IMG/VR virus record: IMGVR_UViG_3300047160_007578
Span: 32,001 to 96,000 of that record
Origin: a virus
Length of the DNA: 64,000 nt
Reading direction: 5' to 3' (one strand)
The stretch's first letter is position 1. Each line of letters begins with the position of its first letter. The notes under the pieces were generated by a model. It made no database searches, was not told the origin of the DNA, and saw only the letters and a list, made by a program, of their open reading frames with translations. Positions 23,680-60,610 of the stretch are shown piece after piece. The position numbers were made by a program, and so were the translations under genes.

Positions 23680-23972
23680 TGGTTCTCACCCGACTAATGG
23701 ATTAAAAATCACCTGATACTTGGTTCTCATCAGGATCACAGCTACATTGGTTCTCACCAGTCGGATGGTTACACCTATCATTTGTTTCTTTCGCGGCCAG
23801 TGGATACTCACTCCTCATCTGGTTCACACGTGGATTATGGATTCGCTAGGATATTGGTTCACACTTCCTCGAAGGATAAACACTATCGGCTTGGTTCTCT
23901 CGCACGAACTGGATACTCACCGGGTTTTTGGTTCTCAACCGAGCTTGGATTCACTTGTGATCTGGTTCTCGT
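23680..23972 (-). ncRNA. TIGR-like dual-repeat guide-RNA array (~8 units)
   Basis: alternating TGGTTCWCAC and TGGWTAC(TC)AC-type repeats with 8-nt variable spacers. Confidence 0.8.
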
Positions 23973-23977
23973 GGATC

Positions 23978-24009
23978 GATCACACCCGGTATTGCTACCG
24001 GGTGTGATC
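23978..24009. terminator. perfect hairpin bordering the array
   Basis: GATCACACCCGGT-ATTGCT-ACCGGGTGTGATC. Confidence 0.6.
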
Positions 24010-24014
24010 ATTAA

Positions 24015-24248
24015 TCACGACTGCTTCGGTCCGGGAGCCGGCGTCGCGGGCGGAGTCGTCGGAGGCTGTTCCGGCGTCGCAGGCGGAGTACCCGGCTGAT
24101 GCGACGGCGCACCAGGTGGGACGTTGGGCTGGTGTCCCGGAGCCGGTGGTGCTCCGGGAGTAGGACGCTGTTCAGGCGTCCCGCCCGGCTTGACCGGCTG
24201 TTGCGACGGTCCACCAGCTTTGGTTTCACTCATGGGTTCTACCTCCAA
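24015..24248 (-). CDS. small Pro/Gly-rich low-complexity protein
   Basis: GGAGG RBS; repeated PPATP motifs. Confidence 0.55.
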   Translation of the reverse strand: MEVEPMSETKAGGPSQQPVKPGGTPEQRPTPGAPPAPGHQPNVPPGAPSHQPGTPPATPEQPPTTPPATPAPGPKQS

Positions 24249-24347
24249 GGGCGACAGGGGATGAGTTGGCGGTGAGCAACGATCTACGGACCAACTACGT
24301 GCACGACCTTATCCGTATCTTTGGTGATTTTTAATCAGGCGAACCAA

Positions 24348-25307
24348 TCAGGCCGATGCTTCGGGCGTTTCCCTCTCGGGATCATCCTGCTCCGCGGGCT
24401 CTTCCGTTGGTGTCTGGTTCATTTCCTCCGGAGTCAGCGGTCGAACCGGAGCAACCACCTTGGTTTCGACTGACACGCCACCGATGGTCAGCTTCGTAGC
24501 CTCTTCCTCGGGCTCAGGCTCGCTGGGCTCGGGCGTGGGCGGAGCGAGCCGCGGATCATTGATCGAAACCCACTGCTCGGTGTCCGGGTCGAACGCCTCG
24601 AAATACTTTGCCGAGTAGTTCTTGTCGTAGGCCGGATGGATCGACTCCGGGAAGCGAGTCCTGAGTTCCTCGATTGACTTGCCCTCCCACAGCGTCTTGA
24701 ACTTCGGCTTCTCGTGCAGCCGCGACGTGGGAATCCGACCGTCCCGCCAGATGAACCGGACCTTCCGGCGGTTCTCGATCGCCTTGAGCGCTTCGTGGTA
24801 TTCGGACTCGAAAGCCCACCAGAGCGCCTTGGCGGTCTTGTCACCCTGCATCTCGACGTACAGGATGCGGTCGTCTTCCTTGGGGATGACGAGATTACTA
24901 ATCGGACCGTCGATGCTGGGCTGGTCGCTGCCGTTGCAGGTGATCGACTTCTGCCGCGACAGGTGGAAATACACGACGGCCTCATCGCCGTCACGCTTGG
25001 CGAACGCGAAGGCACGCTCACCCTGATTGAAAACCTTGGTCACGACCGCGCGCTGCGCACTGCATTCCCAGCAGTGCCAGATCAGGAACCCGTCCCTGGA
25101 AACGGAAGCGATGGGCTTGTTGCACTTCGGGCAGGGGCGACTGACCTGTGCCGCACGCGACCATTCGACCATGAAGAAGGGCTGGAATCGTTCCTGAATC
25201 TTGGCGGCGCACTCAGCGCATTTGCAGCGCTTGTCGTGCGAGCCAGCGACGGATTCGGTGTCGTCATCCGGGGTTTGGACGACGGCCTGGGAAATGTTCT
25301 CGCTCAT
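24348..25307 (-). CDS. Zn-ribbon plus cold-shock-like OB-fold protein
   Basis: CPKC..CWEC then FAFAKR...VYFHLS (RNP1/RNP2-like). Confidence 0.6.
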   Translation of the reverse strand: MSENISQAVVQTPDDDTESVAGSHDKRCKCAECAAKIQERFQPFFMVEWSRAAQVSRPCPKCNKPIASVSRDGFLIWHCWECSAQRAVVTKVFNQGERAFAFAKRDGDEAVVYFHLSRQKSITCNGSDQPSIDGPISNLVIPKEDDRILYVEMQGDKTAKALWWAFESEYHEALKAIENRRKVRFIWRDGRIPTSRLHEKPKFKTLWEGKSIEELRTRFPESIHPAYDKNYSAKYFEAFDPDTEQWVSINDPRLAPPTPEPSEPEPEEEATKLTIGGVSVETKVVAPVRPLTPEEMNQTPTEEPAEQDDPERETPEASA

Positions 25308-25406
25308 ACGAGGCTCCTGAGGGTTAGGGCGAAAGGGATTTCGGACTACGCCAGGAACACCCCAGCGTTTATGGTCCAAACAATACTTTTCGATCATTAA
25401 TCTTTC

Positions 25407-25691
25407 TTACAAATCTGTTCGAGCTTTTTCGATAGCGGCCAATTCTTCCTGGGCCTGGGCGCGACAATCCATTTGGACTGCGAATTCAGACGCACGAGAC
25501 TCGAATGCCGGTAGACTCTCTCCTTCCCTTATTCTGAGGAAACAGACTAATTCACCGTCCTTGGCATCCGGACCAAGGAAAATCGGGATGAAAGCGATTG
25601 AATCCTCCTTTCCGTTTTTCCGAAGAAATTCCACGTCCCCTGAGTAATAAATCACCGCCGGCATAATACACTCCTTAAGTGGTTCCCGCAT
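25407..25691 (-). CDS. hypothetical protein
   Basis: true start probably MPAV, downstream of the array. Confidence 0.55.
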   Translation of the reverse strand: MREPLKECIMPAVIYYSGDVEFLRKNGKEDSIAFIPIFLGPDAKDGELVCFLRIREGESLPAFESRASEFAVQMDCRAQAQEELAAIEKARTDL

Positions 25692-25891
25692 CGGATTTGG
25701 TTACACGAGTACCTTGGTTCACGCGCACGAAATGGTTACGCGACGATTATGGTTCCCACTGTTTGTATGGTTACGCTTCTACGTTTGGTTCTCGTCCATC
25801 TGATGGTTCCATTCGCCGGGCTTGGTTCTCACATCGAGATTGATTAAAAATCACTGCTCCTATGGTTCTCACGTGGTGCGAGGATAATCAC
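25680..25891 (-). ncRNA. TIGR-like array immediately downstream of the Tas gene (~6 units)
   Basis: TGGTTCCCGC-ATCGGATT-TGGTTACAC-GAGTACCT-TGGTTCACGC-GCACGAAA-TGGTTACGC...; 35-nt period. Confidence 0.85.
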
Positions 25892-26958
25892 GCTCCCATT
25901 TCGGCGAGCTTCTTCCCGGTGCTCTCTCGCCAGACCGTCAGGTTCGGCGGAGCGATGTAGTGTCGATGATCCGTTCCAAGCGCCTGATTGAGAGTCTCAG
26001 ACAGAGCGAAGGGTTTCGGTGGCTCACGCCCGAAAAAGTCCTGGTAGAAGATTTCGTGCATGTGACTCATAAAGAGTTTTGTTACCCATCGCCGGGATCG
26101 AGCCAGCATGTGCCCATCCGGCAATCGTCCAGTGATGTAGACCTTGTAGGCATCCGTGGTCTTGCGAACTCGCTTGGCACCGGCCGCTGCTTGATCCTGA
26201 TAGTCGCCGCGGTCATTCTTAGCGTCCTCGTAGGCCCGTCGCTGGGCGTACAATGCGCCGTAGAAGTCCTTGGCGTTTCCTTGAACCTTGATGAAACAGC
26301 TGCCCGCATGGAAACACAACTGTTTCACACTGGCTGCCCACGGGCGCTTGGCCAGCAGTGCGATGACATCTTCGCGAGTGTTCGCTTCGCGTTCTTCGCG
26401 TTCGCCCAGGCGCTGGATTTTGCCGAGTAGCTCCGTCAGAGTCCACTTGGCCTTTCCTGCGATAGCGGTCAGATCATCAATCGGAACCGCGCCTTTGGGC
26501 TTGACCCGGTCTTCCAGGACTTCCTTGACCAGTGCCTCGGACTTGGCCTTGCCGAGCCATTCCCTTGTGGGGTCGAGTCCCGCGAACCGCCACCAGTGAC
26601 CGACGGTTTCAGGAATCGGTGTGCTCAGGTTGGCCAAGAATCCGGCGCTGATTACTGGTCCGATGCCGCAGATGCTCTGGAGCCATTCGCCGGCACGGAA
26701 ACTGGCAGCGAATGCGCCAAGAGCGGACTTGATGTTGCTTTCCAGGGTATTGAGATTGTCGAAGGTCCATTCTAATAGTTTGGACGGCTCGCCGGCTTCG
26801 GTGGAAGTCCGGTGACGGTTTCCAGAACTCACACGGAAGTCCTGGATTTGATAATAGATATCGACCAGGAATCGGGCTTCATTCCGGCCGATCAGACGAG
26901 CCGCGGCCCGCAGGTCGCGATTGAGTTTGTCCAGAGCCTCGTATTGTTCTTCTGGCAT
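25888..26958 (-). CDS. tasA: TasA-like Nop-domain RNA-guided protein (IS110-related, no nuclease domain)
   Basis: N-terminal coiled coil, then LQSICGIGPVISAGFLA, WWRFAGLDP and C-terminal HMLARSRRWVTKLF; no N-terminal DEDD RuvC or HNH; arrays on both sides. Confidence 0.8.
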   Translation of the reverse strand: MPEEQYEALDKLNRDLRAAARLIGRNEARFLVDIYYQIQDFRVSSGNRHRTSTEAGEPSKLLEWTFDNLNTLESNIKSALGAFAASFRAGEWLQSICGIGPVISAGFLANLSTPIPETVGHWWRFAGLDPTREWLGKAKSEALVKEVLEDRVKPKGAVPIDDLTAIAGKAKWTLTELLGKIQRLGEREEREANTREDVIALLAKRPWAASVKQLCFHAGSCFIKVQGNAKDFYGALYAQRRAYEDAKNDRGDYQDQAAAGAKRVRKTTDAYKVYITGRLPDGHMLARSRRWVTKLFMSHMHEIFYQDFFGREPPKPFALSETLNQALGTDHRHYIAPPNLTVWRESTGKKLAEMGA

Positions 26959-27018
26959 GGTTCACATCCTTTCTCCGGTCGTTGACCGGAATGCGATTAT
27001 TAATCAACGTCTCTTTTT

Positions 27019-27375
27019 TGGTTCACGCGAGCTTCACGGTTACACTCCTTCTTGGGTTCTCGCGAAGTCAGTGGTTACGCGCCTTGTATGGTTCTCACGG
27101 TATCAATGGTTTGTCCGCTCCTCCTTTCTCGGAGCCAACGGAACAGGCTCCTGTTTGCACATTCCCTCCGTGGTTCTCACAGTCGCGTTGGTTACGCTCC
27201 TTTCGTGGTTCTCTCGGGCAAATTGGTTACACCTGCATTCTGTTTCTAGCAAAGCGGGTGGTTTTACGCAAATCATCTGGTTCACGCGGGTGCGATGGTT
27301 GCACTCCCTGATCGTGGTTCTCGCATTTAGACTGGTTACTCTCAAGCACTGGTTCCCACCAAACTGATGGTTAGC
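27019..27375 (-). ncRNA. TIGR-like array immediately upstream of the Tas gene (~9 units)
   Basis: alternating 10-nt TGGTTCTCRC and 9-nt TGGTTACRC repeats with 8-nt unique spacers; one loop repeat carries a ~45-nt insert. Confidence 0.88.
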
Positions 27376-27739
27376 TGATTTCCTTAAAGCCGGGGAACTT
27401 CATCTGGTTCTCGATGACGGTTTTCCAGACGCCATCGATCTGGATGGACAGCAGCCGCTCCGGATCGAAACAGCGATACTGTTCTTGCGGGTATTCGTAG
27501 ACGCCGATGAGTCCCTTCTTCTTGAAATCGACGCCCTTGTTGTACGGATTCTTCGCCAACAGAATCTCGTCGGCGATCCCGGTGGCACACTCCATGCCGC
27601 GGATCGTGCCGTCAGCCTTGACGAAACGGATATGGAACCGAACACGGGGATGTTCTTCGATCCACTTCTTCGCGTCCGCGAGTGAAATGACCGTGGTATT
27701 GGCCGCTGGATCAGGAGTTACGATTTCAGGGGTATCCAT
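27371..27739 (-). CDS. WYL-like / SH3-fold (DUF2693-type) protein
   Basis: IRFVKADGTIRGM...VYE....YRCF. Confidence 0.65.
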   Translation of the reverse strand: MDTPEIVTPDPAANTTVISLADAKKWIEEHPRVRFHIRFVKADGTIRGMECATGIADEILLAKNPYNKGVDFKKKGLIGVYEYPQEQYRCFDPERLLSIQIDGVWKTVIENQMKFPGFKEIS

Positions 27740-27796
27740 TGTTGCACCTACTTTCTGCCCCATAGGGGCGTTGATTAAAAATCACAGACTGGTTGA

Positions 27797-28027
27797 TTAA
27801 CTGAACTTCTTACCGAAGACTCGTTGCGCTCGGTCCTTTGTCATGACTCCCGGCCCGCTGCGGACAGTCGCGAAGAGTTCTTCAAGCGGCTGGCCATAAT
27901 ATTGGTACGAGTCGAGCAACGCCTCAGCGCCGGCTCGGTTCTCGTCTTTGGGAAAGAAGCCGACTTCGCTCAGGTCGTACTTCTTCATGAACTCGACCAC
28001 TTGGTCCAAATCAGCATTACTTATCAT
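27797..28027 (-). CDS. hypothetical protein
   Basis: shares a duplicated leader with the neighbouring gene. Confidence 0.6.
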   Translation of the reverse strand: MISNADLDQVVEFMKKYDLSEVGFFPKDENRAGAEALLDSYQYYGQPLEELFATVRSGPGVMTKDRAQRVFGKKFS

Positions 28028-28093
28028 ATCACCTACTTTCTGCTCCATTGGAGCGTTTTGATTAAAGATCACCGACAATGTGGTTCTCGTTTG

Positions 28094-28342
28094 TTACTTG
28101 GTTACGAATTCGATCTGCTCCATCGGAACGAATCCGCCGAACGGTCGCGTATGCACGGCAAAGCCACGCCCACCATAGGTGGTATCCTGGGCACTGCCGA
28201 TGATGTTGTCGTTGTCGTCCAGAACGAAACCATAGCGGCGTCCTGGTCCGTTGTCCTGAGTCAATCTGACCCGAAATTTCCCTCCCAAAATTGAGTGCCA
28301 GACAGCAGTGACGCTGTCAGTGTCAGCTTTAATCGTTGCCAT
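28094..28342 (-). CDS. hypothetical protein
   Basis: GAGGT RBS. Confidence 0.65.
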   Translation of the reverse strand: MATIKADTDSVTAVWHSILGGKFRVRLTQDNGPGRRYGFVLDDNDNIIGSAQDTTYGGRGFAVHTRPFGGFVPMEQIEFVTK

Positions 28343-28361
28343 TGTTACCTCACTCGGGTTT

Positions 28362-28434
28362 TGTTTCTCACCAAAATTCTGGATTCACCCGCTCGTCTGG
28401 TTCTCACCACTCTTTTGGATCATTGATCAATCAC
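28362..28434 (-). ncRNA. short TIGR-like array (2 units)
   Basis: TGTTTCTCAC-N8-TGGATTCAC-N9-TGGTTCTCAC-N8-TGGATC.. Confidence 0.6.
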
Positions 28435-28736
28435 TCCGGGCGTTCTTGGCGAGTCGGGATCGGCAGCTGCGCCGCCATGATCGTGAACTCGAACGGGCAG
28501 CCGAACATGTAAATCTTGAACCGCGTTTCCTCCGGCCAGCGATGACGCCACGGCAGGAAATCCTGAGCTTGCTGCGTGCCAGGCGGAGGAAATTCCACAT
28601 CCGGAACGATCAGAAGCGTATCGGTTGCAGTGAGATACACGCCAGGACCGTTGAACTTGAAATCGTTACCCAGGTAGGTTTCGATTTGTTTGCCGGTTCC
28701 TGAGTGTGTCCAGTCAGGCATTACTTGGTACGGCAT
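28431..28736 (-). CDS. hypothetical protein
   Basis: stop/start coupling. Confidence 0.6.
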   Translation of the reverse strand: MPYQVMPDWTHSGTGKQIETYLGNDFKFNGPGVYLTATDTLLIVPDVEFPPPGTQQAQDFLPWRHRWPEETRFKIYMFGCPFEFTIMAAQLPIPTRQERPE

Positions 28737-29002
28737 TATCCACCTTTCGGATAAGAGGGGTGTTTCTCGCGTCCGCGAGTATATCCGTCGCAGAACGCCC
28801 GCAGACGGAGAACAGTGTTTTCGTCGAGTTGGCCCCGCTTTTCAAGATCGTAGTGAAAATCGAGAAAAATATGGCCAGCATCCTTGCGATTAATAGTCAC
28901 ATCCACATCATAGAGGTCAGCAAGTTCCTCTTGTAGCTCTTTTGCCAGCATGGGCAAATGAATGTGGACACTGTAGATTGTTTGCGACACTATCATGATC
29001 AC
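28736..29002 (-). CDS. hypothetical protein
   Basis: tiles operon. Confidence 0.6.
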   Translation of the reverse strand: MIMIVSQTIYSVHIHLPMLAKELQEELADLYDVDVTINRKDAGHIFLDFHYDLEKRGQLDENTVLRLRAFCDGYTRGREKHPSYPKGG

Positions 29003-29060
29003 CTATCCTTTCCGGCCAATAACGGCCACTGCGATTAATAATCACCACTCGGGGTGGGAT

Positions 29061-29567
29061 TTACCACTCGGGGTGGAACTCATTCCAGTCGACGCTCTTG
29101 TTGACGGTCTGGCCGAGGTTGGCACAGAACACTTCAATCGGGTCTTCGGCATCGAGCACGACGACGAACTTCATGTCGCCGCCGATGATGACTTCGTAAT
29201 ATTTCGGATTTTCGATTTCCACGACGATTCCACCTTTCCTGTTTTCGTTGCTGGCGAAAGTCTGTTCTGCACAGTAGAACTCGATCAGCCGCTTCACGAA
29301 CGCGCAGTTGTCCGCTTTCGCTGCGGCGTTGATCGCGGTGCATCCTTGCAGGTACGACAGTGCTTCCCTCACGCCGTACAGGTTGACATCTTGCCAGAAC
29401 TGAATGGCATACGCCTGATCATCCAGACAGGCGTCAACAGCCATTTCCAGTCGGCGGACCCGGCAACCTTGATCGCCGCGGTCCATTTCCTCCAGAATCC
29501 GCTGAGTCAATCGTTGCTTTGCCATGATTTCTCTCTTCTGTATTACATGTCCAAATGTGAAGATCAT
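29061..29567 (-). CDS. hypothetical protein
   Basis: tiles operon. Confidence 0.6.
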   Translation of the reverse strand: MIFTFGHVIQKREIMAKQRLTQRILEEMDRGDQGCRVRRLEMAVDACLDDQAYAIQFWQDVNLYGVREALSYLQGCTAINAAAKADNCAFVKRLIEFYCAEQTFASNENRKGGIVVEIENPKYYEVIIGGDMKFVVVLDAEDPIEVFCANLGQTVNKSVDWNEFHPEW

Positions 29568-29804
29568 TAATCATTCCTTGAGTTGAATCGTTTCGTCCAG
29601 GTCCAATGCAGGTTGCACCACGCGAACCTGAAAGCACAGACCAGGATATTCTTTCCGGAACAGTTCGATAGCCCGCTCTTTGGTGGCACAAACGTATCGT
29701 CCCCATTTCGAGCCGCCGCAACCACTTGTTGTGCCCACGTCGTAGACCCAATTCGCGGATACTATGAACTCGTATTGCATCGTATCATTCCTTTCGATTA
29801 AAAA

Positions 29805-30242
29805 TCAGTACGGGCGTTTCATCTTGATCCCGAGCTTTTCTCGTATCGCTACGATACTCAGTTCTTGTTTCTGTTCCTCAGTCAGCGTCAGGTACTTGGG
29901 CGCGCACTCGTCGCAGATCGCGTTGTTGAATCCTTTCGACTTCGGCTCCGTCAGGATCACACCCTTGCAGAGCACGCACTCTGTCCAGTGGATGTTCGCG
30001 ATGCCGGGTTCCTTTTCCCAGCCATCGGAAATACTGCCTGTCCGACGGAAGTGTTGTACTGCGAGACGCCGATAATGCTCCAGCAGCACCTTCCGCGACA
30101 TTCGCTTCGGCGACACTGGAAAACGATACACTGTAGAGCGGTGATCCTTTTCCACGCCGAAAGCGAGTTTCACGGCCGCATGTTCGGTCGGTGCTTGCTC
30201 GCATCGTATCGCGTTGCCATAAGCTACTGCGAAGTAGGCCAT
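29805..30242 (-). CDS. hypothetical protein with C-terminal Zn finger
   Basis: CVLC..CDEC. Confidence 0.6.
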   Translation of the reverse strand: MAYFAVAYGNAIRCEQAPTEHAAVKLAFGVEKDHRSTVYRFPVSPKRMSRKVLLEHYRRLAVQHFRRTGSISDGWEKEPGIANIHWTECVLCKGVILTEPKSKGFNNAICDECAPKYLTLTEEQKQELSIVAIREKLGIKMKRPY

Positions 30243-30463
30243 TTTAACCCTCGATTGAGAATTTTCCGCTCAGAGCCTTGTTCAGACCCTCTTGCGGAGT
30301 AAGGATACCGTGGACGACTTGCTTGTAAAGCTTTTCGTCCCCGAACTTCTTCACCCACTTGATCGTTGTGCGGCACGTCTCGCAGCAGTGAGCACCAGGC
30401 TCTTCGCAAACCGCACGATTGCAACCGTAGCACAGTTCCATGAATCGTCCTTTCGATTAAAAA

Positions 30464-30667
30464 TCAGTTTCCCAGGCACGCGAGAACCAGGTCCATCGGA
30501 CTGCCAGCCGGCCAGATGATCCGGTTATTAGCCGGAATCCTGACGGCGGGGTAGCTCTTGCCTTCGTAGCAGTAGCTAACCGACTTGTTACCGTTGGCGT
30601 CCTCACAGGGCACCACGGTCGTGCAGCCGCGATTTTCCAACCACAGCTTCATCGTAATGTAGTCCAC
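30464..30667 (-). CDS. hypothetical protein, first gene after promoter cassette 2
   Basis: GAAAGGTGGTGA RBS plus GTG. Confidence 0.6.
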   Translation of the reverse strand: MDYITMKLWLENRGCTTVVPCEDANGNKSVSYCYEGKSYPAVRIPANNRIIWPAGSPMDLVLACLGN

Positions 30668-30746
30668 GAATCACCACCTTTCATTGTTTGATCATTAATC
30701 ATTTCCGAGTCACGATACTCAAATCTGATCAATAATCGCAGGCCAA

Positions 30747-30859
30747 ATTAATCAAATCTTTCCGGCGGACCGCGCGCAGCGCTCCGCTATTAAAGTATAC
30801 CATATTATTTTGCCTATGTCAAGAGGAATTTTTTGACCTATCGAAAAGATTTGATTAAT
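30747..30859 (-). promoter_or_regulatory. promoter cassette 2 with terminal inverted repeats
   Basis: TTGACA(30817-22)-17 bp-TATACT; same arms and GC-rich CGCAGCGCTCCGCTA block as cassette 1. Confidence 0.9.
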
Positions 30860-30874
30860 CTCGCTCTCTCCTTA

Positions 30875-31084
30875 TGGTTCTCACAAAACCATTGGCTGAT
30901 TAATAATCGCGAGTCGCTTGGTTCACACTCGTATAATGGATACGCTACGAGTTTGGTTCTCACGCTGTCCAAGGATACACCTTCGGTCTGGTTCTCACCG
31001 ATCAGATGGTTGCACCGCCCAATGGTTCTCACCATCTTTTTGGCTACACCTTCCAGTTGGTTCTCACAGCCACGACGGTTAAGC
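30875..31084 (-). ncRNA. orphan TIGR-like array (~6 units)
   Basis: TGGTTCWCAC x6 alternating with (T/A)GG(A/T/C)TACRC-type repeats, 7-8-nt spacers. Confidence 0.82.
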
Positions 31085-31329
31085 CAAGTCACTGCAATGT
31101 GGACAAAGTGATCGCGGAGTCGCGTTGTCCGGATTAGAGCAGTTCGGGTGATGAAAAGAAGTCCAGTATTTGACCGTGTGATCTTCACCTTTCTGCCGAA
31201 TCAATTCTTGCGCGTAGTGATTGGCACCGGCCGCACTTTTCATCTGAGCGACGATTCGGCCGTTTTTATGCAGTACCTTCCACGGACGAGCGGGATCAAT
31301 CAGCATTATTGGTCCTTTCACGTACTCAT

Positions 31330-31394
31330 TGGTTCGCACCAGGACATTGGATACAAGAGCTATGGTTCTCACCATCCACCTGATTAATAATCAC
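31330..31394 (-). ncRNA. short TIGR-like array (2 units)
   Basis: TGGTTCGCAC-N8-TGGATAC..-TGGTTCTCAC-N8-TGATTAATAATCAC. Confidence 0.6.
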
Positions 31395-31404
31395 ACTCGT
31401 TGGA

Positions 31405-31872
31405 CTAAGCATGTGGTTTGATGGGCGAAGCCATCTTTTCGTAGACCTTCGGCATTCCGAGGTTGGCGTGTTCGTCCTTGTGAACGAGACTGACCACCTT
31501 GAAGTGCGCCAGCTTGTTGAGTTCGTGGTTGTCGAACATGTGGTCGTAGGTCGGGTTCATGATCGTGGCCATCATCCGCTTGCATTTTTGGCCGGGCTTG
31601 GCCGGATGCGGACCACCACTATCGCGAAAGGCGCTCGCGATACAGTGATGGATCGGATTGGTTGTGCAAAATGCGATTTCGCACAACAACCAATCGTGCC
31701 ATTGGAATTCGATTCCTTCCGACACATACATATGCGGCAGGCCAGATTCCTTGTAGACTTTGATGACCTCGAAAACTGAGATACTCACCAGACCCTCCTT
31801 TCGATTAAAGATCACACGACCTTTTTTGGTTCCCGCTGGATCAATGGTTACACCGTGGACCTTGGTTCTCAC
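31405..31872 (-). CDS. hypothetical protein (true start probably near 31.79 kb)
   Basis: 5' end of the ORF overlaps repeats; AGGAGG RBS at ~31795. Confidence 0.55.
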   Translation of the reverse strand: MRTKVHGVTIDPAGTKKGRVIFNRKEGLVSISVFEVIKVYKESGLPHMYVSEGIEFQWHDWLLCEIAFCTTNPIHHCIASAFRDSGGPHPAKPGQKCKRMMATIMNPTYDHMFDNHELNKLAHFKVVSLVHKDEHANLGMPKVYEKMASPIKPHA

Positions 31873-31889
31873 TTGCCACAGGGTTACTC
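31802..31889 (-). ncRNA. short TIGR-like array (2 units)
   Basis: TGGTTCCCGC-N8-TGGTTACAC-N9-TGGTTCTCAC-N8-GGGTTACTC. Confidence 0.65.
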
Positions 31890-31901
31890 TGATTCGTAGC
31901 C

Positions 31902-32342
31902 CTAGTATTTGCGCAACGGAGTGTTGGGAAGGGACAAGTCTCTGCGGTAGATCGGCTTGATGCCGCAGCCATGCGCAGACCAGTGAACGGTCCAGGGAAT
32001 TTGTTCGTTATTATTTATGGTATAGATTTCGATTCCTTCCTCTGGAATCTCCAGTGAAGCGAGCTTGAGTTCCCAAAACCACGCGTAGTCCCGCTTGAGC
32101 ATTTCCAGAGGAAAATCATGTTTTTGATCGAGATTGAGTACGCGGGCGACGTGAACATATTGAGCCTTCGGGCACAAAACCAGTTCGGCAACTGCTGCTT
32201 CGATCATGGTCGTTGGTTCGCCTGGAACCGCCCGGATCATGACACGATCATTCGGTGCGCCTGGAGTCTCTGTCGATGCGAATGGGAAGCTGATTATTTC
32301 CACGATCCGGCCCTGAAGCGTGGCTTGGTCGTATGGTTTCAC
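31902..32342 (-). CDS. hypothetical protein
   Basis: 146-aa ORF with RBS. Confidence 0.6.
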   Translation of the reverse strand: MKPYDQATLQGRIVEIISFPFASTETPGAPNDRVMIRAVPGEPTTMIEAAVAELVLCPKAQYVHVARVLNLDQKHDFPLEMLKRDYAWFWELKLASLEIPEEGIEIYTINNNEQIPWTVHWSAHGCGIKPIYRRDLSLPNTPLRKY

Positions 32343-32378
32343 GATTATTAATCCTTTCGGACGAATTGTCCTTTTGGT

Positions 32379-35179: not shown

Positions 35180-35415
35180 ATTTCACCTACCTTTCTGGCC
35201 CAGAGCCATTGGGATTATTGATCATTCCGGTTCGAGCGAACCGCCGAACCAGCCGAGCACTTCTTCGACGTTCGCTTCGGATGAACAGTTCCGAATTGCG
35301 TCAAGCAATTTCTGCTTGCGCTCTTCCCAGGTGACGACAGGGTCGCCGCCGATCACAGACAGAGCTTCGGCGGCAGTTTCGTACTGATCCATTTTTCTCC
35401 CTTTCACTAACTACT

Positions 35416-35511
35416 TGGTTCCCACTCCTTGGATGGTTACGCTTCTTCGTTTGGTTCCCACTGGCTGGTTGGTTACACCATGGTCTTGGTTCTCTCGGCT
35501 CGATCGGTTTA
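35416..35511 (-). ncRNA. orphan TIGR-like array (3 units)
   Basis: TGGTTCCCAC-N8-TGGTTACGC-N9-TGGTTCCCAC-N8-TGGTTACAC-N8-TGGTTCTCTC. Confidence 0.78.
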
Positions 35512-35865: not shown

Positions 35866-36072
35866 GAATCACTTCCTTTCGCCGATTGAGTTGATGGCGT
35901 CATCGAACGCCTTATTGTACTCCCGATTTTCCCGCTGTTGGACCGTTCCTTTGTAGCTCTGAAACAGGCACACTCCGGCGGTCACAAAGACCATGCCGAG
36001 AACGATGCAGACAGCACAAAACAGGTCTCTCACGAATCACCACCTTTCATTGTTAGGATCAATCCAACTTTC

Positions 36073-36134
36073 TGATTATTGATCACGCAACCACAATGGT
36101 TCTCACGCTCGGGGTGGTTATTTGATCATTAATC
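36073..36134 (-). ncRNA. single TIGR-like unit just downstream of promoter cassette 3
   Basis: TGGTTCTCAC-GCTCGGGG-TGGTTA flanked by palindrome-containing repeats. Confidence 0.45.
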
Positions 36135-36143
36135 ATTGGCCAG

Positions 36144-36256: not shown

Positions 36257-36301
36257 CTCGCCTTTTGTCCACAAAAAGCTACCTTGCTTTTCGATTATTA
36301 A

Positions 36302-45767: not shown

Positions 45768-45782
45768 TGTTCACACCGTCTT

Positions 45783-45879
45783 TGGTTCTCGCAACATGGT
45801 GGATACGCGTAGATGGTGGTTCTCTCTACTCCTTCGGATACACCCACATAATGGTTCTCACGGCGATCAAGGCTATCCG
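45783..45879 (-). ncRNA. orphan TIGR-like array (3 units)
   Basis: TGGTTCTCGC-N7-TGGATACGC-N8-TGGTTCTCTC-N8-CGGATACAC-N8-TGGTTCTCAC. Confidence 0.75.
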
Positions 45880-50251: not shown

Positions 50252-52917
50252 CTAGCCCTCCAGCCCTTTTTAATTGAATAGTCTATGTGTTCATCTTTGG
50301 ACATTAAACGCCAACTATATCCTTCGTATTTGTCTTGCTGCTTGGTCAAACAACGGTAAATCTGGTTAAAGTCCAATCCAAATTTCTTTACATCGAATCG
50401 GTTCTTGTAAGCATCAACGATTTGGTTTTGATCATTAATCGAAACGATACCATATCCCTTATCACCCCAATTGATTACATAGCTATCCCACGGCATTTTG
50501 ATAAGCGGGACCATCGGTCTAATAGCTTCAACTGCATCTTTTACCACTTTGGCTACCTTTTCAACATATTGTGGTTTGACCGGAGTAATGATCGAATCGT
50601 GGATATTAACAGGTTGAACGATCCATTCGTGTTCGCCCTTTGGTTGCAGATTCCAAACAGCCAATTGAACACGCTTGGTTGCCTCAGCACCAGTTCCTTG
50701 AATCACATGGTTCGCAGCCGCACGCTTATTGTGGCCTTGTACATTGAACGCCGCGGAATATATAGCTGAACAGGCCGCACCACCCGCAGTTTGAACCCTA
50801 TCAGTTCGTGTAACTTTCAGTTTGATATCTTTCATTGCCTTTGGCATTTTATTTGCTAGTTCAAACAATGCTTTGCAAATCATATTTTCTAAAGTAAAAT
50901 ATCGTTTGAAACCAAACAAGGTTTCCATGTAATCAGATGGTTGATGCCATTCTACTTTCGTCCCGCGTCCACCCGGCTGTCGCATGGATTGGAACATATC
51001 GACGACAACTTGCTGTGCCCGACCAACACCCTTGTACTTGCGATCAAATCTTCTATTTGCTTCCTCAGCTGCCTCTAATGGTATTCCAAGGCGATCTTGC
51101 ATTGTTCCAGCATCGCCGCCGTAGATTTTGAGGAAGACAGCTTGCTTTGATTTTGTGTACCTATCATCGTCCGTCTTTTCTGTCGCCTTGATTTCATCGT
51201 AAGTCATACCAGGGAAACAGAACATACCGAACAGAGCGTGAATCTTTTGGCCCTTATTGCTACCACACTTGGAACAGATATAGTCACATTTATTTTGATC
51301 AAAAATCATTTCAGACTTGCAAGACTCACAAGTCAACAAGTCCTTTTTCAATTCCGGATCGTTATAAACAGCTACCGCGATTGTTACCTCGAATGCGTCG
51401 AAGTCACCACCCGCTAGAACTTCATCGCCCCAAGTGAACAAAAATTGCATCTTTACTGCGAAGGTATTTTTGACAGCTTGAATGTTCAAACCGTCCGCAC
51501 CGCTCATGCGACCACTGAGTGTCCCGATCACTTTCAAGGACGCGTGAAGTCTTCCGGCCGCAATAATCTTGTCCCACAGTTCACGTTCCTTATCTGCCTT
51601 TCTTGCTAATACGATCTGCTCGCAGCGCACAGCCGCGGGGTGTTTAATAAATCCAGTCCCTTTACAAACCAGGCACTTATCGTGATCAATCCCGTTACTG
51701 TCTTTTTCCATGCATGGCAATTTCCATTCGCGTGCAATATACTCAAGTGTTACTTTCTTGGTGTTACCATGCTCTGAACTGAAAGCTAATTTCTCATTCT
51801 CATCGCAGACGGCCATGATGTAACGCTTAACATCAGCCGGGGCCGTAGGCAATGGAACTAGATCATTCTGAATTGGATCAAAAATCAATTTCCGCTTGAA
51901 TGATTCGTCGCGATGTTTTATCGCACCCGCTATATCCATCCGGTATCCGCGCCAACGCGAGCAAGCAACCATGATCGCCAACTCGCTATCCATATCCCCC
52001 ATATCAGCTTCAGTTATATTGAAGAACTTACACAAACCGCGAGTATAGACGATATCATCTTCCGCGTATTTCCGGGCCAACTCATTGTAGCCCCAATGTA
52101 TGATATGTTCTTTAATCAACGCGGGCCAAGTGTTCCGATACGGCCCTGCTCGTTTCCGTTCCTTGGATTTATTTTTGAGTTTTAATCGAATCGCCGCTTT
52201 AGCAAACGGAGCATAACCGAATTCGACAGGGAATAGCCGGGGCGATATGTCTCCGTATCGTAGTATCTGCTCATACGTTGCCAATCCAACATCGACAGCC
52301 AAAGCTTTCAAAGCGGAGCTTGGCTTGAACTTCAATACGATATCCTTCCAATCAGGATCAATCTCACCAAATGTATCTTTTCGATCCCGGACGTTCCACT
52401 TCGATTGGTTCTTATCTTTGCGCCTAGCGAAGTAAATGTCCTTTAGAGGAATCCGTTTCTCTAATTCTTCTGCCACCATCCAAGCAAGTGGTGTAGGAAC
52501 GCGTCTTAAGACTACGTCTTTCCTTTCCATTGTGCTCTGATAACTTGTCCTGCGTGCGTGCAGGAACAAGTCACATACTTTTTGTGGGCGTATCGTTGTC
52601 GGACAATCTCTGCCGGCTTCTTCCAGTTCGATTATTGTTTCGATATGATCTTCAGGATATGCGTCAGGATCAATCTCCATCAATTGCTTGATTATCGTGT
52701 ACCACTTAACCAGGTGGAACCAATCGAAAACCGCATTAAAGAATATTAATCCGTCCTTGTGATGAACGAATTTCATTATCAGTTCCCAAGACTCTTTTGC
52801 TGGAGAAGTCCAAGGAGAAAACAGATTGATTGGCCCATCGCCTTCCGCCCACTGGATCAGAACGACAAGCCCATGCAGTCCACACGTTTCTGTGTCAATA
52901 ACTATCGGACTGAACAT
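50248..52917 (-). CDS. polA: family A DNA polymerase with 3'-5' exonuclease
   Basis: Exo I IDTET, Exo II FNAVFD, Exo III YAEDD; GTLSGRMS, motif A GDFDAFEV, motif B RYTKSKQAVFLKIYG, motif C IHDS. Confidence 0.92.
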   Translation of the reverse strand: MFSPIVIDTETCGLHGLVVLIQWAEGDGPINLFSPWTSPAKESWELIMKFVHHKDGLIFFNAVFDWFHLVKWYTIIKQLMEIDPDAYPEDHIETIIELEEAGRDCPTTIRPQKVCDLFLHARRTSYQSTMERKDVVLRRVPTPLAWMVAEELEKRIPLKDIYFARRKDKNQSKWNVRDRKDTFGEIDPDWKDIVLKFKPSSALKALAVDVGLATYEQILRYGDISPRLFPVEFGYAPFAKAAIRLKLKNKSKERKRAGPYRNTWPALIKEHIIHWGYNELARKYAEDDIVYTRGLCKFFNITEADMGDMDSELAIMVACSRWRGYRMDIAGAIKHRDESFKRKLIFDPIQNDLVPLPTAPADVKRYIMAVCDENEKLAFSSEHGNTKKVTLEYIAREWKLPCMEKDSNGIDHDKCLVCKGTGFIKHPAAVRCEQIVLARKADKERELWDKIIAAGRLHASLKVIGTLSGRMSGADGLNIQAVKNTFAVKMQFLFTWGDEVLAGGDFDAFEVTIAVAVYNDPELKKDLLTCESCKSEMIFDQNKCDYICSKCGSNKGQKIHALFGMFCFPGMTYDEIKATEKTDDDRYTKSKQAVFLKIYGGDAGTMQDRLGIPLEAAEEANRRFDRKYKGVGRAQQVVVDMFQSMRQPGGRGTKVEWHQPSDYMETLFGFKRYFTLENMICKALFELANKMPKAMKDIKLKVTRTDRVQTAGGAACSAIYSAAFNVQGHNKRAAANHVIQGTGAEATKRVQLAVWNLQPKGEHEWIVQPVNIHDSIITPVKPQYVEKVAKVVKDAVEAIRPMVPLIKMPWDSYVINWGDKGYGIVSINDQNQIVDAYKNRFDVKKFGLDFNQIYRCLTKQQDKYEGYSWRLMSKDEHIDYSIKKGWRAR

Positions 52918-54008: not shown

Positions 54009-54072
54009 CGCTGATCCGCGCCTCTTTTTGTCCCATCGTATCAGATCGGCGAATCACAGTGTGTCAGGTCGA

Positions 54073-55264: not shown

Positions 55265-55290
55265 CGGTCCCCATGCGGACCTGTTAATAC

Positions 55291-58652: not shown

Positions 58653-58934
58653 TCACCCTCCGCGTCTGAGCACGGGAATCCCGTGCTCGATAAATTGGAC
58701 TGTCCCAATAAATCAAGCTGCTCCCACAAGATCATTGACTATTGCAACGAATTGATAAATCCGGTATCCATCCTCGCTATATCGTTCCGTTTGCCGATAG
58801 AGGTAATCGACACCATCCACATGAATAAGGATGGTATCACTGTGTCGCCCGAGTGGTAGAAATCGGCGGGTTCCGTCACGCGGGCCGAACCGAAACTCAA
58901 TGTACATGTTCGCCCCTCTCATAAATCGTAATCG

Positions 58935-58993
58935 TAGAATTATGATCTTTAATTGTGATCTAGAATTATGATCTAGAATTATGATCTTTAATC
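58935..58993. repeat. 13-bp tandem repeat x4.5
   Basis: TAGAATTATGATC / TTTAATTGTGATC / TAGAATTATGATC / TAGAATTATGATC / TTTAATC. Confidence 0.85.
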
Positions 58994-59118
58994 AAACAAA
59001 CGCCTCTTCCCTGTCCCTGCTTCGCGGCGTTTTCACTGGCTGTGTAATAGCACGAATACAGTTGCAATACTAAGGCCCACTGCTATGGGTATCGCTACCC
59101 ATAGCAGTGGACCGGCCA

Positions 59119-59331
59119 CTAACGGCAGCGACCGCCGGAACAGCCACCCCCATAGGAGAAGCCACCCGCGTAGGCGAAACCGCCCGCGTAGCCGCCACCG
59201 CACCCGCCACCGTAAACGACGGCGTGTCCACCACCGCGCCGGCCGCCGCCTCGACAGCCCCGAGCGTCCACGGTCTCCACGAAAAGCACAGAGCCAATAA
59301 GTGCAACGAGAGCCAAAGCCAGGAATCGCAT
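59119..59331 (-). CDS. small secreted Gly/Cys-rich peptide
   Basis: signal peptide then GGGCGGGYAGG...GGGCSGGRCR. Confidence 0.55.
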   Translation of the reverse strand: MRFLALALVALIGSVLFVETVDARGCRGGGRRGGGHAVVYGGGCGGGYAGGFAYAGGFSYGGGCSGGRCR

Positions 59332-59375
59332 AGCGTGTTCTCCGCGAGTGACCAGAACGATCAATGATCACGCGA

Positions 59376-59687
59376 TCACATCATCGCCCCGGTATGAATC
59401 AGAATTATGTTACTGTTAATTTCGATCGGTTTGATTTTGCCCTTATTTGCATCCTGCCAATCTTTTTCCGTAGAGAAGATGATATTATCCAGTTTGGTGG
59501 CGAGCCATTCGTAGAGCCAGGTGTCCACCGGATGACCCTGCTCGTTGTTCGCGAGATTGCCGTATTCACCGTGGCACTTCCAGAGATTCTTGAACTCGTC
59601 CGACATGGGATCAAGTTCAAGATCATAAATCGTGGTCGCCTCCGGCACCGCCTCGAAGATAACCAGAGCCCGAGTGAGAGTGTTCAC
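59376..59687 (-). CDS. hypothetical protein
   Basis: GTGA overlap. Confidence 0.6.
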   Translation of the reverse strand: MNTLTRALVIFEAVPEATTIYDLELDPMSDEFKNLWKCHGEYGNLANNEQGHPVDTWLYEWLATKLDNIIFSTEKDWQDANKGKIKPIEINSNIILIHTGAMM

Positions 59688-60217
59688 TGAATCTTCCTTT
59701 TCTCGATCAGTCTAATAGTACGGTCATTCGTGAGAATAAATTCAAGCGCCATGTATTGAGTCATAGCGGCATCTTCCAATCGACCATAGGCCAATGTTCC
59801 AAATTCGCGGACTTCAAATGATTGACCATTGGAGCAGCAATTAAGTAATGCGGATCGCCATTCATGCAACGTGCCCGATACTATTGAGATTCGGAAGTTC
59901 TCCAGACATGACTTCGCTGCCGTGAAGTGAAGTCTGGAACGATTAATAATCTCTAAGAGTGCCGCATCCGTGCAGACCAGAATGAATGAAACATGAACGT
60001 GAACCAACAAATGATTTGCAGCTTCAAACGGTTCACTGCCGGGCGTATCAATTTCTTTCAGAGCGACGATGAAATCAGACAACGATTTCGTGGGCGTGAT
60101 CCAACGCGCATTCAATTGCTCAAGAGGGTTTCGCTTGAGAACGTCAGAGACTTCTCTCAAAAAGGTATCCCAATCAACTTGTGTTTGTGCTATCGGTATT
60201 AGGCGGATCATAGTCAA
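59684..60217 (-). CDS. divergent ThyX-like protein
   Basis: HLLVHVHVSF and IVSGTLHEWR..L...EVR resemble ThyX segments; RHR signature absent. Confidence 0.45.
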   Translation of the reverse strand: MTMIRLIPIAQTQVDWDTFLREVSDVLKRNPLEQLNARWITPTKSLSDFIVALKEIDTPGSEPFEAANHLLVHVHVSFILVCTDAALLEIINRSRLHFTAAKSCLENFRISIVSGTLHEWRSALLNCCSNGQSFEVREFGTLAYGRLEDAAMTQYMALEFILTNDRTIRLIEKRKIQ

Positions 60218-60371
60218 GCCTTATTCTCGGCAATGGGCATTGAAGCGTGTCGCCGTTTCTGACAACGACACCATCCATGTGAACTGTTCCGTTACCGTCA
60301 TCGACAGCCGTGTAAATCTCGCGGTGTCCTTCTCGTCGAGTCACGACTACTTCAACTTCACACTCTTCCAT

Positions 60372-60610
60372 TGGTTCGCACTCACAGCGGGGTTGAACAG
60401 GCTGTTTGGTTCACGCGTGGAATGTGACTTCACACCCGACTGCTGGTTCTCGCAACGGATAAGGCTACGCGCATCGTCATCGGTTCTCACCATGTGCATG
60501 ACTACACGTTTGACTTGGTTCCCGCACACTGCATGGCTGCACACTTCCATTGTTTCTCGCGAAGAAGGTGGCTACGCTCGGTACCTGGTTCTCGCCGCGG
60601 GTCTGTTTAC
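60372..60610 (-). ncRNA. orphan TIGR-like array (~7 units)
   Basis: TGGTTCNCRC repeats alternating with TGRCTRCRC-type repeats, 8-10-nt spacers. Confidence 0.8.

What the first reader, a model, noticed from the sequence alone, without database searches (positions are those of the whole stretch)
23680..60610. Guide arrays are scattered across 37 kb rather than confined to the tas locus
Seen: besides the two flanking arrays, the same repeat pair recurs at 23680-23972, 28362-28434, 30875-31084, 31330-31394, 31802-31889, 35416-35511, 36073-36134, 45783-45879 and 60372-60610. All are in the transcribed orientation and intergenic or at gene ends, roughly 45-50 units in total, with only one tas gene in the window. 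Two arrays end just before the next promoter cassette. Some spacers recur nearly identically between arrays (GCACGAAA/GCACGAAC; TTCTACGTT/TTCTTCGTT). Inference: guides are cut out of many different mRNAs, like intronic snoRNAs, so the guide pool could change with infection stage, and units can spread to new sites.
Basis: partly seen in the sequence, partly recalled or inferred. Interest (0 to 1): 0.85.

Follow-up and report, generated by a model that had tools for sequence, protein, structure and literature searches.

The report
Phage TIGR guide arrays scattered between genes
A soil phage with one nuclease-free TIGR-Tas protein keeps about 50 two-part guide RNA units in a dozen small arrays that fill gaps between genes up to 34 kb from that protein's gene, a layout the TIGR papers I could search do not describe.

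Summary
A full-unit scan of the whole 130-kb phage contig (CCA-N8/9-GYGNGAACCA-N8/9-GYG, up to 2 mismatches) finds 47 units on the minus strand. It finds 1 on the plus strand and about 1.5 per shuffled genome. All 47 lie at window 23669-60836.

Fourteen units flank the single tas gene (25888-26958, minus strand). The other 33 sit at 11 further sites, 1 to 34 kb away.

The repeats have the published TIGR signature: box D UG at the start and box C CCA at the end. The protein folds like TasR and TasH but has no nuclease domain, so it is TasA-type.

Arrays run from the stop codon of one minus-strand ORF to the ribosome-binding site of the next. They sit inside operons driven by near-identical sigma-70 promoter cassettes. 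Co-transcription with mRNA is therefore strongly implied, but it is not shown: no RNA run was listed.

- Near-identical spacers occur at chance level (3 pairs against 2.06 expected).
- No target exists in the phage's own genome.
- Stage-specific guide pools are not supported.

Two distant relatives (L036, L069) also interleave arrays with genes, whereas most relatives do not.

This scan's earlier notes report the same layout in at least 11 other genomes. I found no paper describing it.

The parts
25888..26958 (-). tasA: the single TIGR-associated Nop-domain protein, 356 aa, with no nuclease domain
   Evidence: PHROG 4285 E=1.8e-26. AF2 model pLDDT 86, all-helical. The ten best PDB fold matches are TasR 9mty and TasH 9w04/9vzx/21kl/9w03/9w02. 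The profile of 32 homologues hits 9mty at E=1.1e-20. It is the only copy in the 130-kb contig.
25669..25883 (-). tas-downstream array, 5 scanned units plus 1 irregular. It begins 4 nt after the tas stop codon and ends at the SD and ATG of ORF 25407-25664.
27008..27370 (-). tas-upstream array, 9 scanned units. It begins at the TAA of ORF 27371-27763, which lies inside the first edge repeat. It is interrupted by a hairpin-bearing insert at about 27100-27160.
23669..23972 (-). distant array 1.9 kb downstream of tas, 5 scanned units (about 9 by eye, some irregular). It ends 4 nt before the promoter cassette at 23665.
28070..28101 (-). single unit between ORFs 28094-28342 and 27797-28048. The stop codon of the upstream ORF lies in spacer A.
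28351..28418 (-). 2-unit array between ORFs 28431-28736 and 28094-28342
   Evidence: An identical contig is present in runs X10 and X2.
30864..31078 (-). 6-unit array. It begins at the TAA of ORF 31079-31306 and ends 5 nt before the promoter cassette at 30859.
   Evidence: Identical contigs in X10, X4 and X9. One X2 contig lacks 30863-31315. The array has no special fold (z = -0.46).
31319..31383 (-). 2-unit array, one unit 33 nt long, between ORFs 31405-31788 and 31079-31306
   Evidence: A 2-nt insertion variant at 31353 in X2 and X10 gives the usual unit length.
31815..31883 (-). 2-unit array between ORFs 31902-32342 and 31405-31788
35405..35507 (-). 3-unit array 8.4 kb from tas. It begins 1 nt after the TAA of ORF 35509-35865 and ends at the SD and ATG of ORF 35222-35392.
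   Evidence: Identical contigs in X2 and X4.
36086..36117 (-). single unit in the leader just downstream of the promoter cassette at 36256-36133
45772..45872 (-). 3-unit array 18.8 kb from tas. It begins at the TAG of ORF 45873-46220 and ends at the ATG of ORF 45534-45767.
60361..60606 (-). 7-unit array 33.4 kb from tas. It begins at the TAA of ORF 60607-60798. Its edge repeats are of the local type GYGUAGCCA.
60805..60836 (-). lone unit (1 mismatch) whose spacer B doubles as the SD of ORF 60607-60798. It may be degenerate.
23554..23665 (-). promoter cassette: TTGACA-17-TATAAT (12 of 12, with TG) between inverted ATTAATCAAATC ends. Paralogues lie at 30747-30859, 36144-36256 and 44848-44961.

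Best explanation
This is a dual-repeat TIGR-TasA system with a fragmented guide repertoire.

What is there:
- One nuclease-free Tas protein.
- About 50 guide units of 35-36 nt. Each has an edge repeat GYG-UA(A/U)-CCA, an 8-nt spacer A, a loop repeat GYG-AGAA-CCA and an 8-nt spacer B.
- The units form 12-13 mini-arrays of 1-9 scanned units. These occupy intergenic gaps of consecutive leftward operons over 37 kb.

How it most likely works:
- Each array is a whole number of units. [quoted passage not shown] - The arrays are therefore transcribed as parts of polycistronic mRNAs from host-type sigma-70 promoters. Tas-dependent cleavage at the edge repeats then releases the units.
- The resulting pool of guides loads the one TasA, presumably a dimer as in solved Tas complexes. 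TasA binds, without cutting, 16-18-bp DNA sites read by the two spacers on opposite strands.
- Those sites are probably in the host or in competing elements, because none is in the phage itself.

Shown here: the anatomy, the strand, the statistics, the Tas fold and the absence of self-targets.
Inferred: co-transcription, processing, loading and repression.
For: Statistics and family signature:
- 47 units on the coding strand, 1 on the other strand, and 1.5 per shuffled genome. All lie in one 37-kb stretch of a 130-kb genome.
- Both repeats start with (G)YG and end with CCA. Faure et al. define box D as UG and box C as CCA (PMC12045711, section on the TasR structure). The consensus is the same in tas-adjacent and distant units.
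- The AGAA linker fits the A-rich, tetraloop-like loop repeat described in that paper.
- Every array ends loop repeat, spacer, GYG. [quoted passage not shown]

Gene context:
- Stop codons sit 0-4 nt from the array start at 27371, 31079, 35509, 45873, 60607 and 25888. An SD plus start codon follows the array end at 25664, 28342, 31306, 31788 and 35392.
- 16 of 17 flanking minus-strand ORFs rank first of six frames for codon usage as typed. The arrays themselves score as non-coding.
- Strong minus-strand promoters head the operons, and no minus-strand terminator-like site abuts an array at 22-41 kb.

The protein:
- It has the Tas fold and is all-helical, without a nuclease domain.
- TasA proteins act as RNA-guided repressors (bioRxiv 10.64898/2026.09.09.750476, discussion read).

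Independent copies and relatives:
- Contigs from other soil metagenome runs are identical over six of the distant array sites.
- Relatives L036 and L069 also alternate co-directional ORFs with arrays, out to 5 and 9 kb from tas.
Against: - There is no RNA evidence: no run on record as RNA was listed.
- The catalytic Tyr of the Y/H processing dyad (SpTasH Y289/H296; PMC13421893, section read) aligns with Phe in this protein. Across the alignment it is F in 7 of 32 sequences, W in 1 and Y in 24. The His column is invariant. Autonomous processing is therefore uncertain.
- Some units are degenerate: 8 of 47 have two mismatches, one unit is 33 nt long, and there are lone units.
- A hairpin with a weak T tail at 60888-60863 stands upstream of the 60.4-60.8-kb units, so their promoter is unclear.
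- No target was found. In the phage's own genome, hits at up to 1 mismatch number 0, and hits at 2 mismatches number 3+5 against 3.5+4.5 for mispaired controls.
- Most relatives keep their arrays within 2.5 kb of tas (29 of 34 loci). Two whole relatives of 59 and 44 kb have none farther than 4.4 kb.
Confidence: 0.7

Rival explanations
1. Array debris. The distant arrays are remnants of one or a few larger arrays, split up by gene insertions and deletions. They are neutral passengers that contribute little or nothing to the guide pool.
For: - Degenerate and lone units exist.
- Irregular spacing and inserts occur in the 23.7-kb and 27.1-kb arrays.
- Strain variants lose or gain units and a whole gene-plus-array block.
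- Most relatives have compact arrays beside tas.
Against: - Boxes C and D are kept as well in the 28 distant units as in the 13 adjacent ones.
- 12 of 33 distant units are perfect matches, against 5 of 14 adjacent ones.
- Every array keeps whole units with proper truncated ends.
- The interleaved layout recurs in L036 and L069, whose Tas is only 35-38% identical.
Confidence: 0.12
2. Punctuation in cis. The main role of the intergenic units is to let TasA bind or cut the phage's own polycistronic mRNAs at defined joints. This would set the ends, stability or translation of the neighbouring cistrons. DNA targeting would be secondary.
For: - Arrays run exactly from stop codon to ribosome-binding site.
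- In several arrays the last spacer B or the truncated edge repeat carries the SD: 25669, 28351, 31319, 35405 and 60805.
Against: - This is inference only; no transcript ends are known.
- Spacers are unique and variable, as expected of guides. A cis site would not need that.
- Arrays of 6-9 units are more than punctuation needs.
Confidence: 0.15
3. One reading: different operons deliver different guide sets at different infection stages.
For: The arrays lie in at least four or five separate transcription units.
Against: - Those units are headed by near-identical sigma-70 cassettes, which implies one class.
- No other promoter type was seen next to the arrays.
- No time-course data exist.
Confidence: 0.08
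4. An ordinary intergenic repeat (REP-like or attenuator) unrelated to Tas, or a chance pattern.
For: Nothing specific. The genome is rich in other dispersed repeats, including 172 copies of an 11-bp palindrome.
Against: - The unit, boxes, spacing and strand are identical to those of the arrays that touch the tas gene.
- 47 hits against 1.5 expected.
- No Rfam family is matched.
Confidence: 0.02

Closest known systems
Dual-repeat TIGR-TasA systems, such as FpTIGR of Flavonifractor plautii (Faure et al. 2025, PMC12045711; sections read)
   Same: - A nuclease-free Nop-domain protein.
- Two alternating short repeats that start with UG and end with CCA.
- Two short spacers per unit of about 36 nt.
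- Arrays with truncated edge repeats at both ends.
- Arrays touching the tas gene on both sides.
   Different: - Only 14 of 47 units are beside tas. The rest lie in 11 mini-arrays or lone units 1-34 kb away, between other genes.
- No terminator follows the arrays; they run into the next gene's ribosome-binding site.
- Spacers have 8 variable nucleotides plus a fixed G, not 9.
[quoted passage not shown]
SpTIGR-TasH of Salicola phage CGphi29 (PMC12045711; PMC13421893; PDB 9w03, 9w04)
   Same: - Phage-borne and dual-repeat, with 16 variable nucleotides per guide.
- It is among the best fold matches.
- A C-terminal loop carries a conserved His.
   Different: - TasH carries an HNH nuclease; this protein does not.
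- The Tyr of the SpTasH Y289/H296 dyad aligns with Phe here.
Polycistronic and intronic box C/D snoRNAs of eukaryotes and archaea (named as evolutionary kin in the discussion of PMC12045711)
   Same: - Guides with box C/D-like anchors bound by a Nop-domain protein.
- Dispersed through the genome.
- Apparently released from transcripts that also carry other genes.
   Different: - DNA targets, not RNA targets.
- No K-turn/L7Ae or fibrillarin partner is evident.
- The units are still partly tandem.
- Release from mRNA is inferred here, not shown.
- This is not a member of that family.
Intragenic and flexibly placed stem-loop tigRNAs (Xu et al. 2026, bioRxiv 10.64898/2026.09.09.750476; sections read)
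   Same: Both show that tigRNAs need not sit in a clean array beside tas. That paper also raises an 'alternative guide RNA source' for tas genes without arrays.
   Different: - Those cases lie within or directly around tas and are mostly stem-loop units.
- Here dual-repeat units lie tens of kb away between unrelated genes.
Orphan and mini CRISPR arrays of viruses
   Same: Small guide arrays lie apart from any effector gene in a viral genome.
   Different: - A different system: Cas effectors, a single repeat and long spacers.
- Here the effector is encoded in the same genome.

Membership tests
TIGR-Tas (dual-repeat) | Tas protein with a Nop-domain fold related to the IS110 RNA-binding domain | tested here: met
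   Foldseek ranks 1-10 are TasR and TasH structures (prob 1.00, best E=4e-4), followed by IS110-family recombinases. The profile hits 9mty at E=1.1e-20. PHROG 4285 E=1.8e-26.
TIGR-Tas (dual-repeat) | Two alternating 8-12-nt repeats with short spacers of about 9 nt, in units of about 36 nt | tested here: met
   10-nt GYGAGAACCA and 9-nt GYGUA(A/U)CCA repeats. 41 of 47 units have 8+8 variable positions. The period is 35-37 nt.
TIGR-Tas (dual-repeat) | Both repeats start with box D (UG) and end with box C (CCA) | tested here: met
   Over 41 units the position counts are G 40, Y 37, G 40 at the loop start and C 38, C 41, A 39 at the loop end. The edge repeat shows the same pattern. The definition comes from PMC12045711.
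TIGR-Tas (dual-repeat) | [quoted passage not shown] | tested here: inconclusive
   Truncated ends are present at all arrays. No minus-strand terminator-like site follows any array at 22-41 kb; a ribosome-binding site or a promoter cassette follows instead.
TIGR-Tas (dual-repeat) | Arrays lie directly upstream and/or downstream of tas | tested here: not met
   This is met for 2 arrays (14 units). It is not met for 11 sites (33 units) at 1.1-33.8 kb, and 15 of those units lie more than 8 kb away. This is the point of the finding. It is a matter of layout, not of the parts.
TIGR-Tas (dual-repeat) | Transcripts are processed to about 36-nt tigRNAs bound by Tas | not testable with these tools
   No run on record as RNA was listed.
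TIGR-Tas (dual-repeat) | C-terminal Y/H processing dyad (SpTasH Y289/H296) | tested here: inconclusive
   The His column is invariant in 32 of 32 sequences (H331). The Tyr column is F in this protein and in 6 others, W in 1 and Y in 24. The equivalence of columns rests on the Y-x6-H spacing in the short-loop homologues; this is my inference.
TIGR-Tas (dual-repeat) | Spacer pairs read adjacent halves of a DNA target on opposite strands | tested here: inconclusive
   There is no match in the phage's own 130 kb in either geometry, with gaps of 0-4 and up to 1 mismatch: 0 hits against 2.45 per round for mispaired controls. The host is unknown.
TasA subtype | No HNH or RuvC domain before the coiled coil | tested here: met
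   The model is helices only and starts with long helices at residues 3-85. Pfam gives only a weak Transposase_20 hit.
Box C/D snoRNA-like organisation (works like, not a member) | Guides released from transcripts that carry other genes | not testable with these tools
   Only the anatomy speaks for it.

The most novel reading that the evidence does not exclude
Guide biogenesis and operon architecture are coupled. TasA-dependent excision of units at every gene joint would cut the phage's early polycistronic mRNAs into single cistrons whose 5' ends sit just before their ribosome-binding sites. The same short repeats would serve as recombination joints through which gene-plus-array blocks are lost, gained or swapped between strains. 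If so, TIGR units are a snoRNA-like, genome-wide layer of a phage, not merely a locus. Tas genes that seem to lack arrays may then draw on guides hidden between distant genes.
Probability: 0.2. Interest if true: 0.8.

Novelty: new variant of a known kind. Interest (0 to 1): 0.6.

Why it matters
TIGR-Tas was described in 2025 as a protein gene with adjacent, regular arrays. The array finders search only around tas: 5 kb on each side in PMC12045711, and 'surrounding tas loci' in the 2026 preprint.

In this phage, 33 of 47 units would be partly or wholly missed, and 15 lie beyond 8 kb. This has four consequences:
- Counts of guides per system, and calls of 'arrayless' tas genes, may be biased.
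- Guides can evidently live inside ordinary operons, which bears on how tigRNAs are made and on the open question of processing.
- The contrast drawn in print between clustered tigRNAs and dispersed snoRNAs is weaker than stated. This matters for the proposed evolutionary link.
- Strain-level gain and loss of units gives a handle on how arrays grow, which is unknown.

The limits are plain. There are no expression data and no targets, and the layout is a minority among the relatives sampled here.

Tried and rejected
- Plus-strand reading of the repeat: rejected, because only the minus strand gives UG...CCA.
- Recurring spacers as evidence of copying: 3 near-identical pairs of 4371 against 2.06 expected. 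The best whole-unit pair matches 11 of 16 positions, which is within the shuffle range. One pair in the other register (25750 and 35416, 32 of 36 by eye; also cross-laid by a contig) is borderline.
- Self-targets: none.
- Closer relatives of the phage: tblastn of Tas and of the DNA polymerase against the phage collection found nothing. The polymerase found no relative in viral contigs.
- An exact repeat-pair pattern in viral contigs gave 5 single hits without arrays, which I take as chance.
- RNA evidence: no RNA holder was listed.
- Parts of the stretch without contig cover are not used as evidence.
- Two of the joints (26974>27233 and 27258>27333) have only 26 letters on the shorter side at 85% likeness, so they may be repeat artefacts. 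The back-joint 36194>30798 may be an assembly path through the paralogous promoter cassettes.
- Tas homodimer prediction: no verdict.
- Rfam: no family.
- The array folds no better than shuffles, as expected for dual-repeat arrays.
- A host or target search in large collections was not attempted, because a 16-mer has hundreds of chance hits there.
- Supplementary files of the papers (table S1 and fig. S4 of PMC12045711) were not open to me and may show dispersed arrays.
- 'Not in print' rests only.

Full report
**What the DNA is.** The window is bases 32001-96000 of a single 130,262-bp viral contig. CheckV puts it at 88% complete. It occurs in soil metagenomes: 24 DNA runs of 19 coded studies hold at least part of it. 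The stretch in question is a replication and early region read on the minus strand. It encodes a DNA polymerase, a helicase, a ParB-like protein, a thymidylate synthase and a ligase.

**The observation.**
- TGGTTC[TA]C occurs 41 times on the plus strand and 5 times on the minus strand of the whole contig. 39 of the 41 lie between window 23680 and 60586.
- Cutting the sites at this word shows a 35-37-nt unit with two alternating repeats and two 8-nt variable stretches.
- Read on the minus strand, the repeats are G-Y-G-A-G-A-A-C-C-A and G-Y-G-U-A-(A/U)-C-C-A.
- Faure et al. report that both repeats of a TIGR unit start with UG (box D) and end with CCA (box C) (PMC12045711, structure section). 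Only the minus strand gives this. It is also the strand of the tas gene and of the flanking ORFs.

A scan of the whole genome for the core of a unit (CCA-N8/9-GYGNGAACCA-N8/9-GYG) gives 17 perfect, 22 one-mismatch and 8 two-mismatch hits on the minus strand. It gives 0, 1 and 0 on the plus strand, and means of 0, 0.05 and 1.45 in 20 shuffles. All 47 hits lie at 23669-60836. An independent chain scan of CCA-spacer-YG intervals gives 11 chains of 3 or more intervals on the minus strand and none on the plus strand.

Fourteen units flank tas. Distances from tas range from 1.1 to 33.8 kb. Fifteen units are more than 8 kb away.

**The protein.** ORF 25888-26958 (356 aa) is the only Tas-like gene in the contig.
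- Its AlphaFold model, built from an alignment of 32 homologues, has pLDDT 86 and is all-helical. It starts with long helices.
- The ten best PDB matches are the TasR and TasH complexes, followed by IS110-family recombinases.
- The family profile hits TasR 9mty at E=1.1e-20, including the C-terminal loop.
- No nuclease domain is present, so it is TasA-type.
- In the C-terminal loop the His column is invariant. The column that I equate with the catalytic Tyr of SpTasH (Y289/H296; PMC13421893) is Phe here, and Phe in 7 of 32 sequences overall. Whether this TasA cuts its own precursor is therefore open.

**Anatomy of the arrays.**
- In every array the first and last full repeats are of the GAGAACCA type. 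The array opens with only the ...AACCA end of the other repeat and closes with only its GYG start. This matches the published rule of truncated edge repeats at both ends. It makes GYGUAACCA the edge repeat and GYGAGAACCA, with its AGAA linker, the loop repeat. Each array is thus a whole number of units.
- Six arrays begin 0-4 nt after the stop codon of the upstream ORF: 27371, 31079, 35509, 45873, 60607 and tas at 25888. In several, the UAA lies inside the first edge repeat.
- Most arrays end at a Shine-Dalgarno sequence and start codon: 25664, 28342, 31306, 31788 and 35392 (SD flagged by the script). At 45767 an ATG follows the array end, but no SD was flagged.
- 16 of the 17 flanking minus-strand ORFs scored rank first of six frames in a codon-usage score trained on ten annotated genes. 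The 17th was typed off frame, and its in-frame offset was the top score. The arrays score as non-coding. Only 2 of 10 flanking ORFs have a PHROG family.
- The array RNA has no special fold.

**Transcription units.** Near-identical cassettes lie at about 23.6, 30.8, 36.2 and 44.9 kb. Each has TTGACA, 17 nt and TAnnnT between inverted ATTAATCAAATC ends, and fires on the minus strand. Further copies of the ATTAATCAAATC word, without an evident TTGACA-17-TAnnnT promoter, lie at 64.4-64.7 kb. The simple promoter scan ranks the first two at the top (12/12 and 11/12). It also finds the 44.9-kb one (10/12) and another site at 55630.

No minus-strand terminator-like site stands next to an array at 22-41 kb. 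One single unit (36086-36117) is the first element behind a cassette. A hairpin with a weak T tail at 60888-60863 precedes the 60.4-60.8-kb units, so their promoter is unclear.

Co-transcription with the neighbouring genes is thus the simplest reading for the arrays at 25-36 kb. It is less sure at 60 kb. Because the cassettes are alike, I see no basis for stage-specific guide pools.

**Spacers.**
- Spacers are unique. Pairs differing by at most one letter number 3 of 4371, against 2.06 expected. The best whole-unit resemblance is within the shuffle range.
- Composite targets in both geometries have no match in the phage genome at up to 1 mismatch. Hits at 2 mismatches number 3+5, against 3.5+4.5 for mispaired controls. 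With gaps of 0-4 there are 0 hits, against 2.45 per control round.
- Edge-repeat linkers differ by array: UAA beside tas and at 35.4 kb, UAU at 23.8 and 45.8 kb, UAG at 60.4 kb. This suggests local growth of each array.

**Other samples.** Contigs of four other runs, laid at 85% likeness on 26900-36300, include pieces identical to the window across the arrays at 28.4, 31.0, 31.3, 31.8 and 35.4 kb and over most of the single unit at 28.07 kb (table 8). The runs may belong to one campaign.

Variants also appear:
- One contig lacks 30863-31315, which removes the 6-unit array and the small gene before it (65 letters on the shorter side).
- A 2-nt insertion at 31353 restores the usual unit length.
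- Loose ends carry other repeat units next to 30726 and 31378.
- Two joints within the tas-upstream array skip 74 and 258 nt. These have only 26 letters on the shorter side and may be artefacts.

The arrays therefore look like sites of structural change.

**Relatives.**
- Tas has 606 database relatives at E<=0.001 among the 8000 candidates scored. The closest is 94% identical.
- Of the 83 loci fetched with the Tas protein or its alignment (3 viral; 80 metagenome), I examined the 35 longer ones. 34 of them had a repeat signature beside tas. In 29 of the 34, all clusters lie within 2.5 kb of tas. In 5 there is a cluster farther out, limited by the 10-kb flanks.
- L036 (arrays at +0.2, +3.0 and +5.0 kb) and L069 (six mini-arrays over 12 kb) alternate co-directional ORFs and arrays as this phage does.
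- Two whole viral contigs of 59 and 44 kb have large arrays beside tas and nothing beyond 4.4 kb.
- The dispersed layout is therefore recurrent but a minority among the relatives sampled.

**Literature.** I read sections of PMC12045711, bioRxiv 10.64898/2026.09.09.750476 and PMC13421893, and passages of bioRxiv 10.64898/2026.10.21.760802.
- The first two contain none of the words orphan, scattered or dispersed.
- No paper in the library holds tigRNA together with dispersed or scattered.
- TIGR-Tas together with orphan gives two unrelated reviews, seen in the search listing only.
- Faure et al. contrast clustered tigRNAs with sparsely distributed snoRNAs.
- Xu et al. note tas genes without arrays and ask about another guide source.
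- Supplements were not available to me.

**Earlier notes of this scan.** They report the same layout in at least 11 other phage genomes, and on this genome from overlapping windows. I did not test the claims about other genomes.

**Verdict.** This is a genuine TIGR-TasA system whose parts are ordinary and whose layout is not. It is a new variant of a known kind. It is confirmed at the sequence level, with expression, processing and targets still to be shown.

Noticed in passing
whole genome; e.g. window 31382-31392, 44300-44310, 63948-63975: An 11-bp palindrome GATYWWWAATC occurs 172 times in 130 kb, evenly spread. It is often wedged between the SD and the start codon, but also occurs inside genes. 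In 7 arrays it sits in or right after the last edge repeat (e.g. GUG-AUUUUUAAU-CCA at 23700-23714).
   Followed up: partly
window 23554-23665, 30747-30859, 36144-36256, 44848-44961: Four paralogous cassettes of about 112 bp, bounded by inverted ATTAATCAAATC. Each has a near-consensus sigma-70 promoter and a GC-rich segment. They head successive leftward operons. Further copies of the end word lie at 64.4-64.7 kb.
   Followed up: partly
window 30242-30746: A stretch of about 505 bp without a convincing ORF lies behind the 30.8-kb promoter. It is absent from contigs of runs X2 and X9 (joint 30241>30747, 68 letters on the shorter side).
   Followed up: no
window 27371-27763 (minus): The ORF whose stop codon opens the tas-upstream array has weak hits to WYL_2, an Sm-like SH3 barrel (E=0.0018, below the Pfam cut-off), and to PHROGs 2267 and 1086. 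It is a possible RNA- or ligand-binding partner, untested.
   Followed up: no
window 23978-24009: A perfect 12-bp-stem hairpin lies immediately upstream of the 23.9-kb array on the RNA strand, with no U tail. Its role is unknown.
   Followed up: no
window 58935-58987 and 59074-59113: Four tandem copies of a 13-nt unit (TAGAATTATGATC) lie next to an 18-bp-stem hairpin on the minus strand.
   Followed up: no
window 50248-52917 (minus): The 889-aa DNA polymerase has no tblastn match at E<=1e-5 in the 50,697-record phage collection and no relative in viral contigs by the pattern search. The phage lineage is poorly sampled.
   Followed up: partly
window 2877-2909: A run of 16.5 AG dinucleotides.
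   Followed up: no
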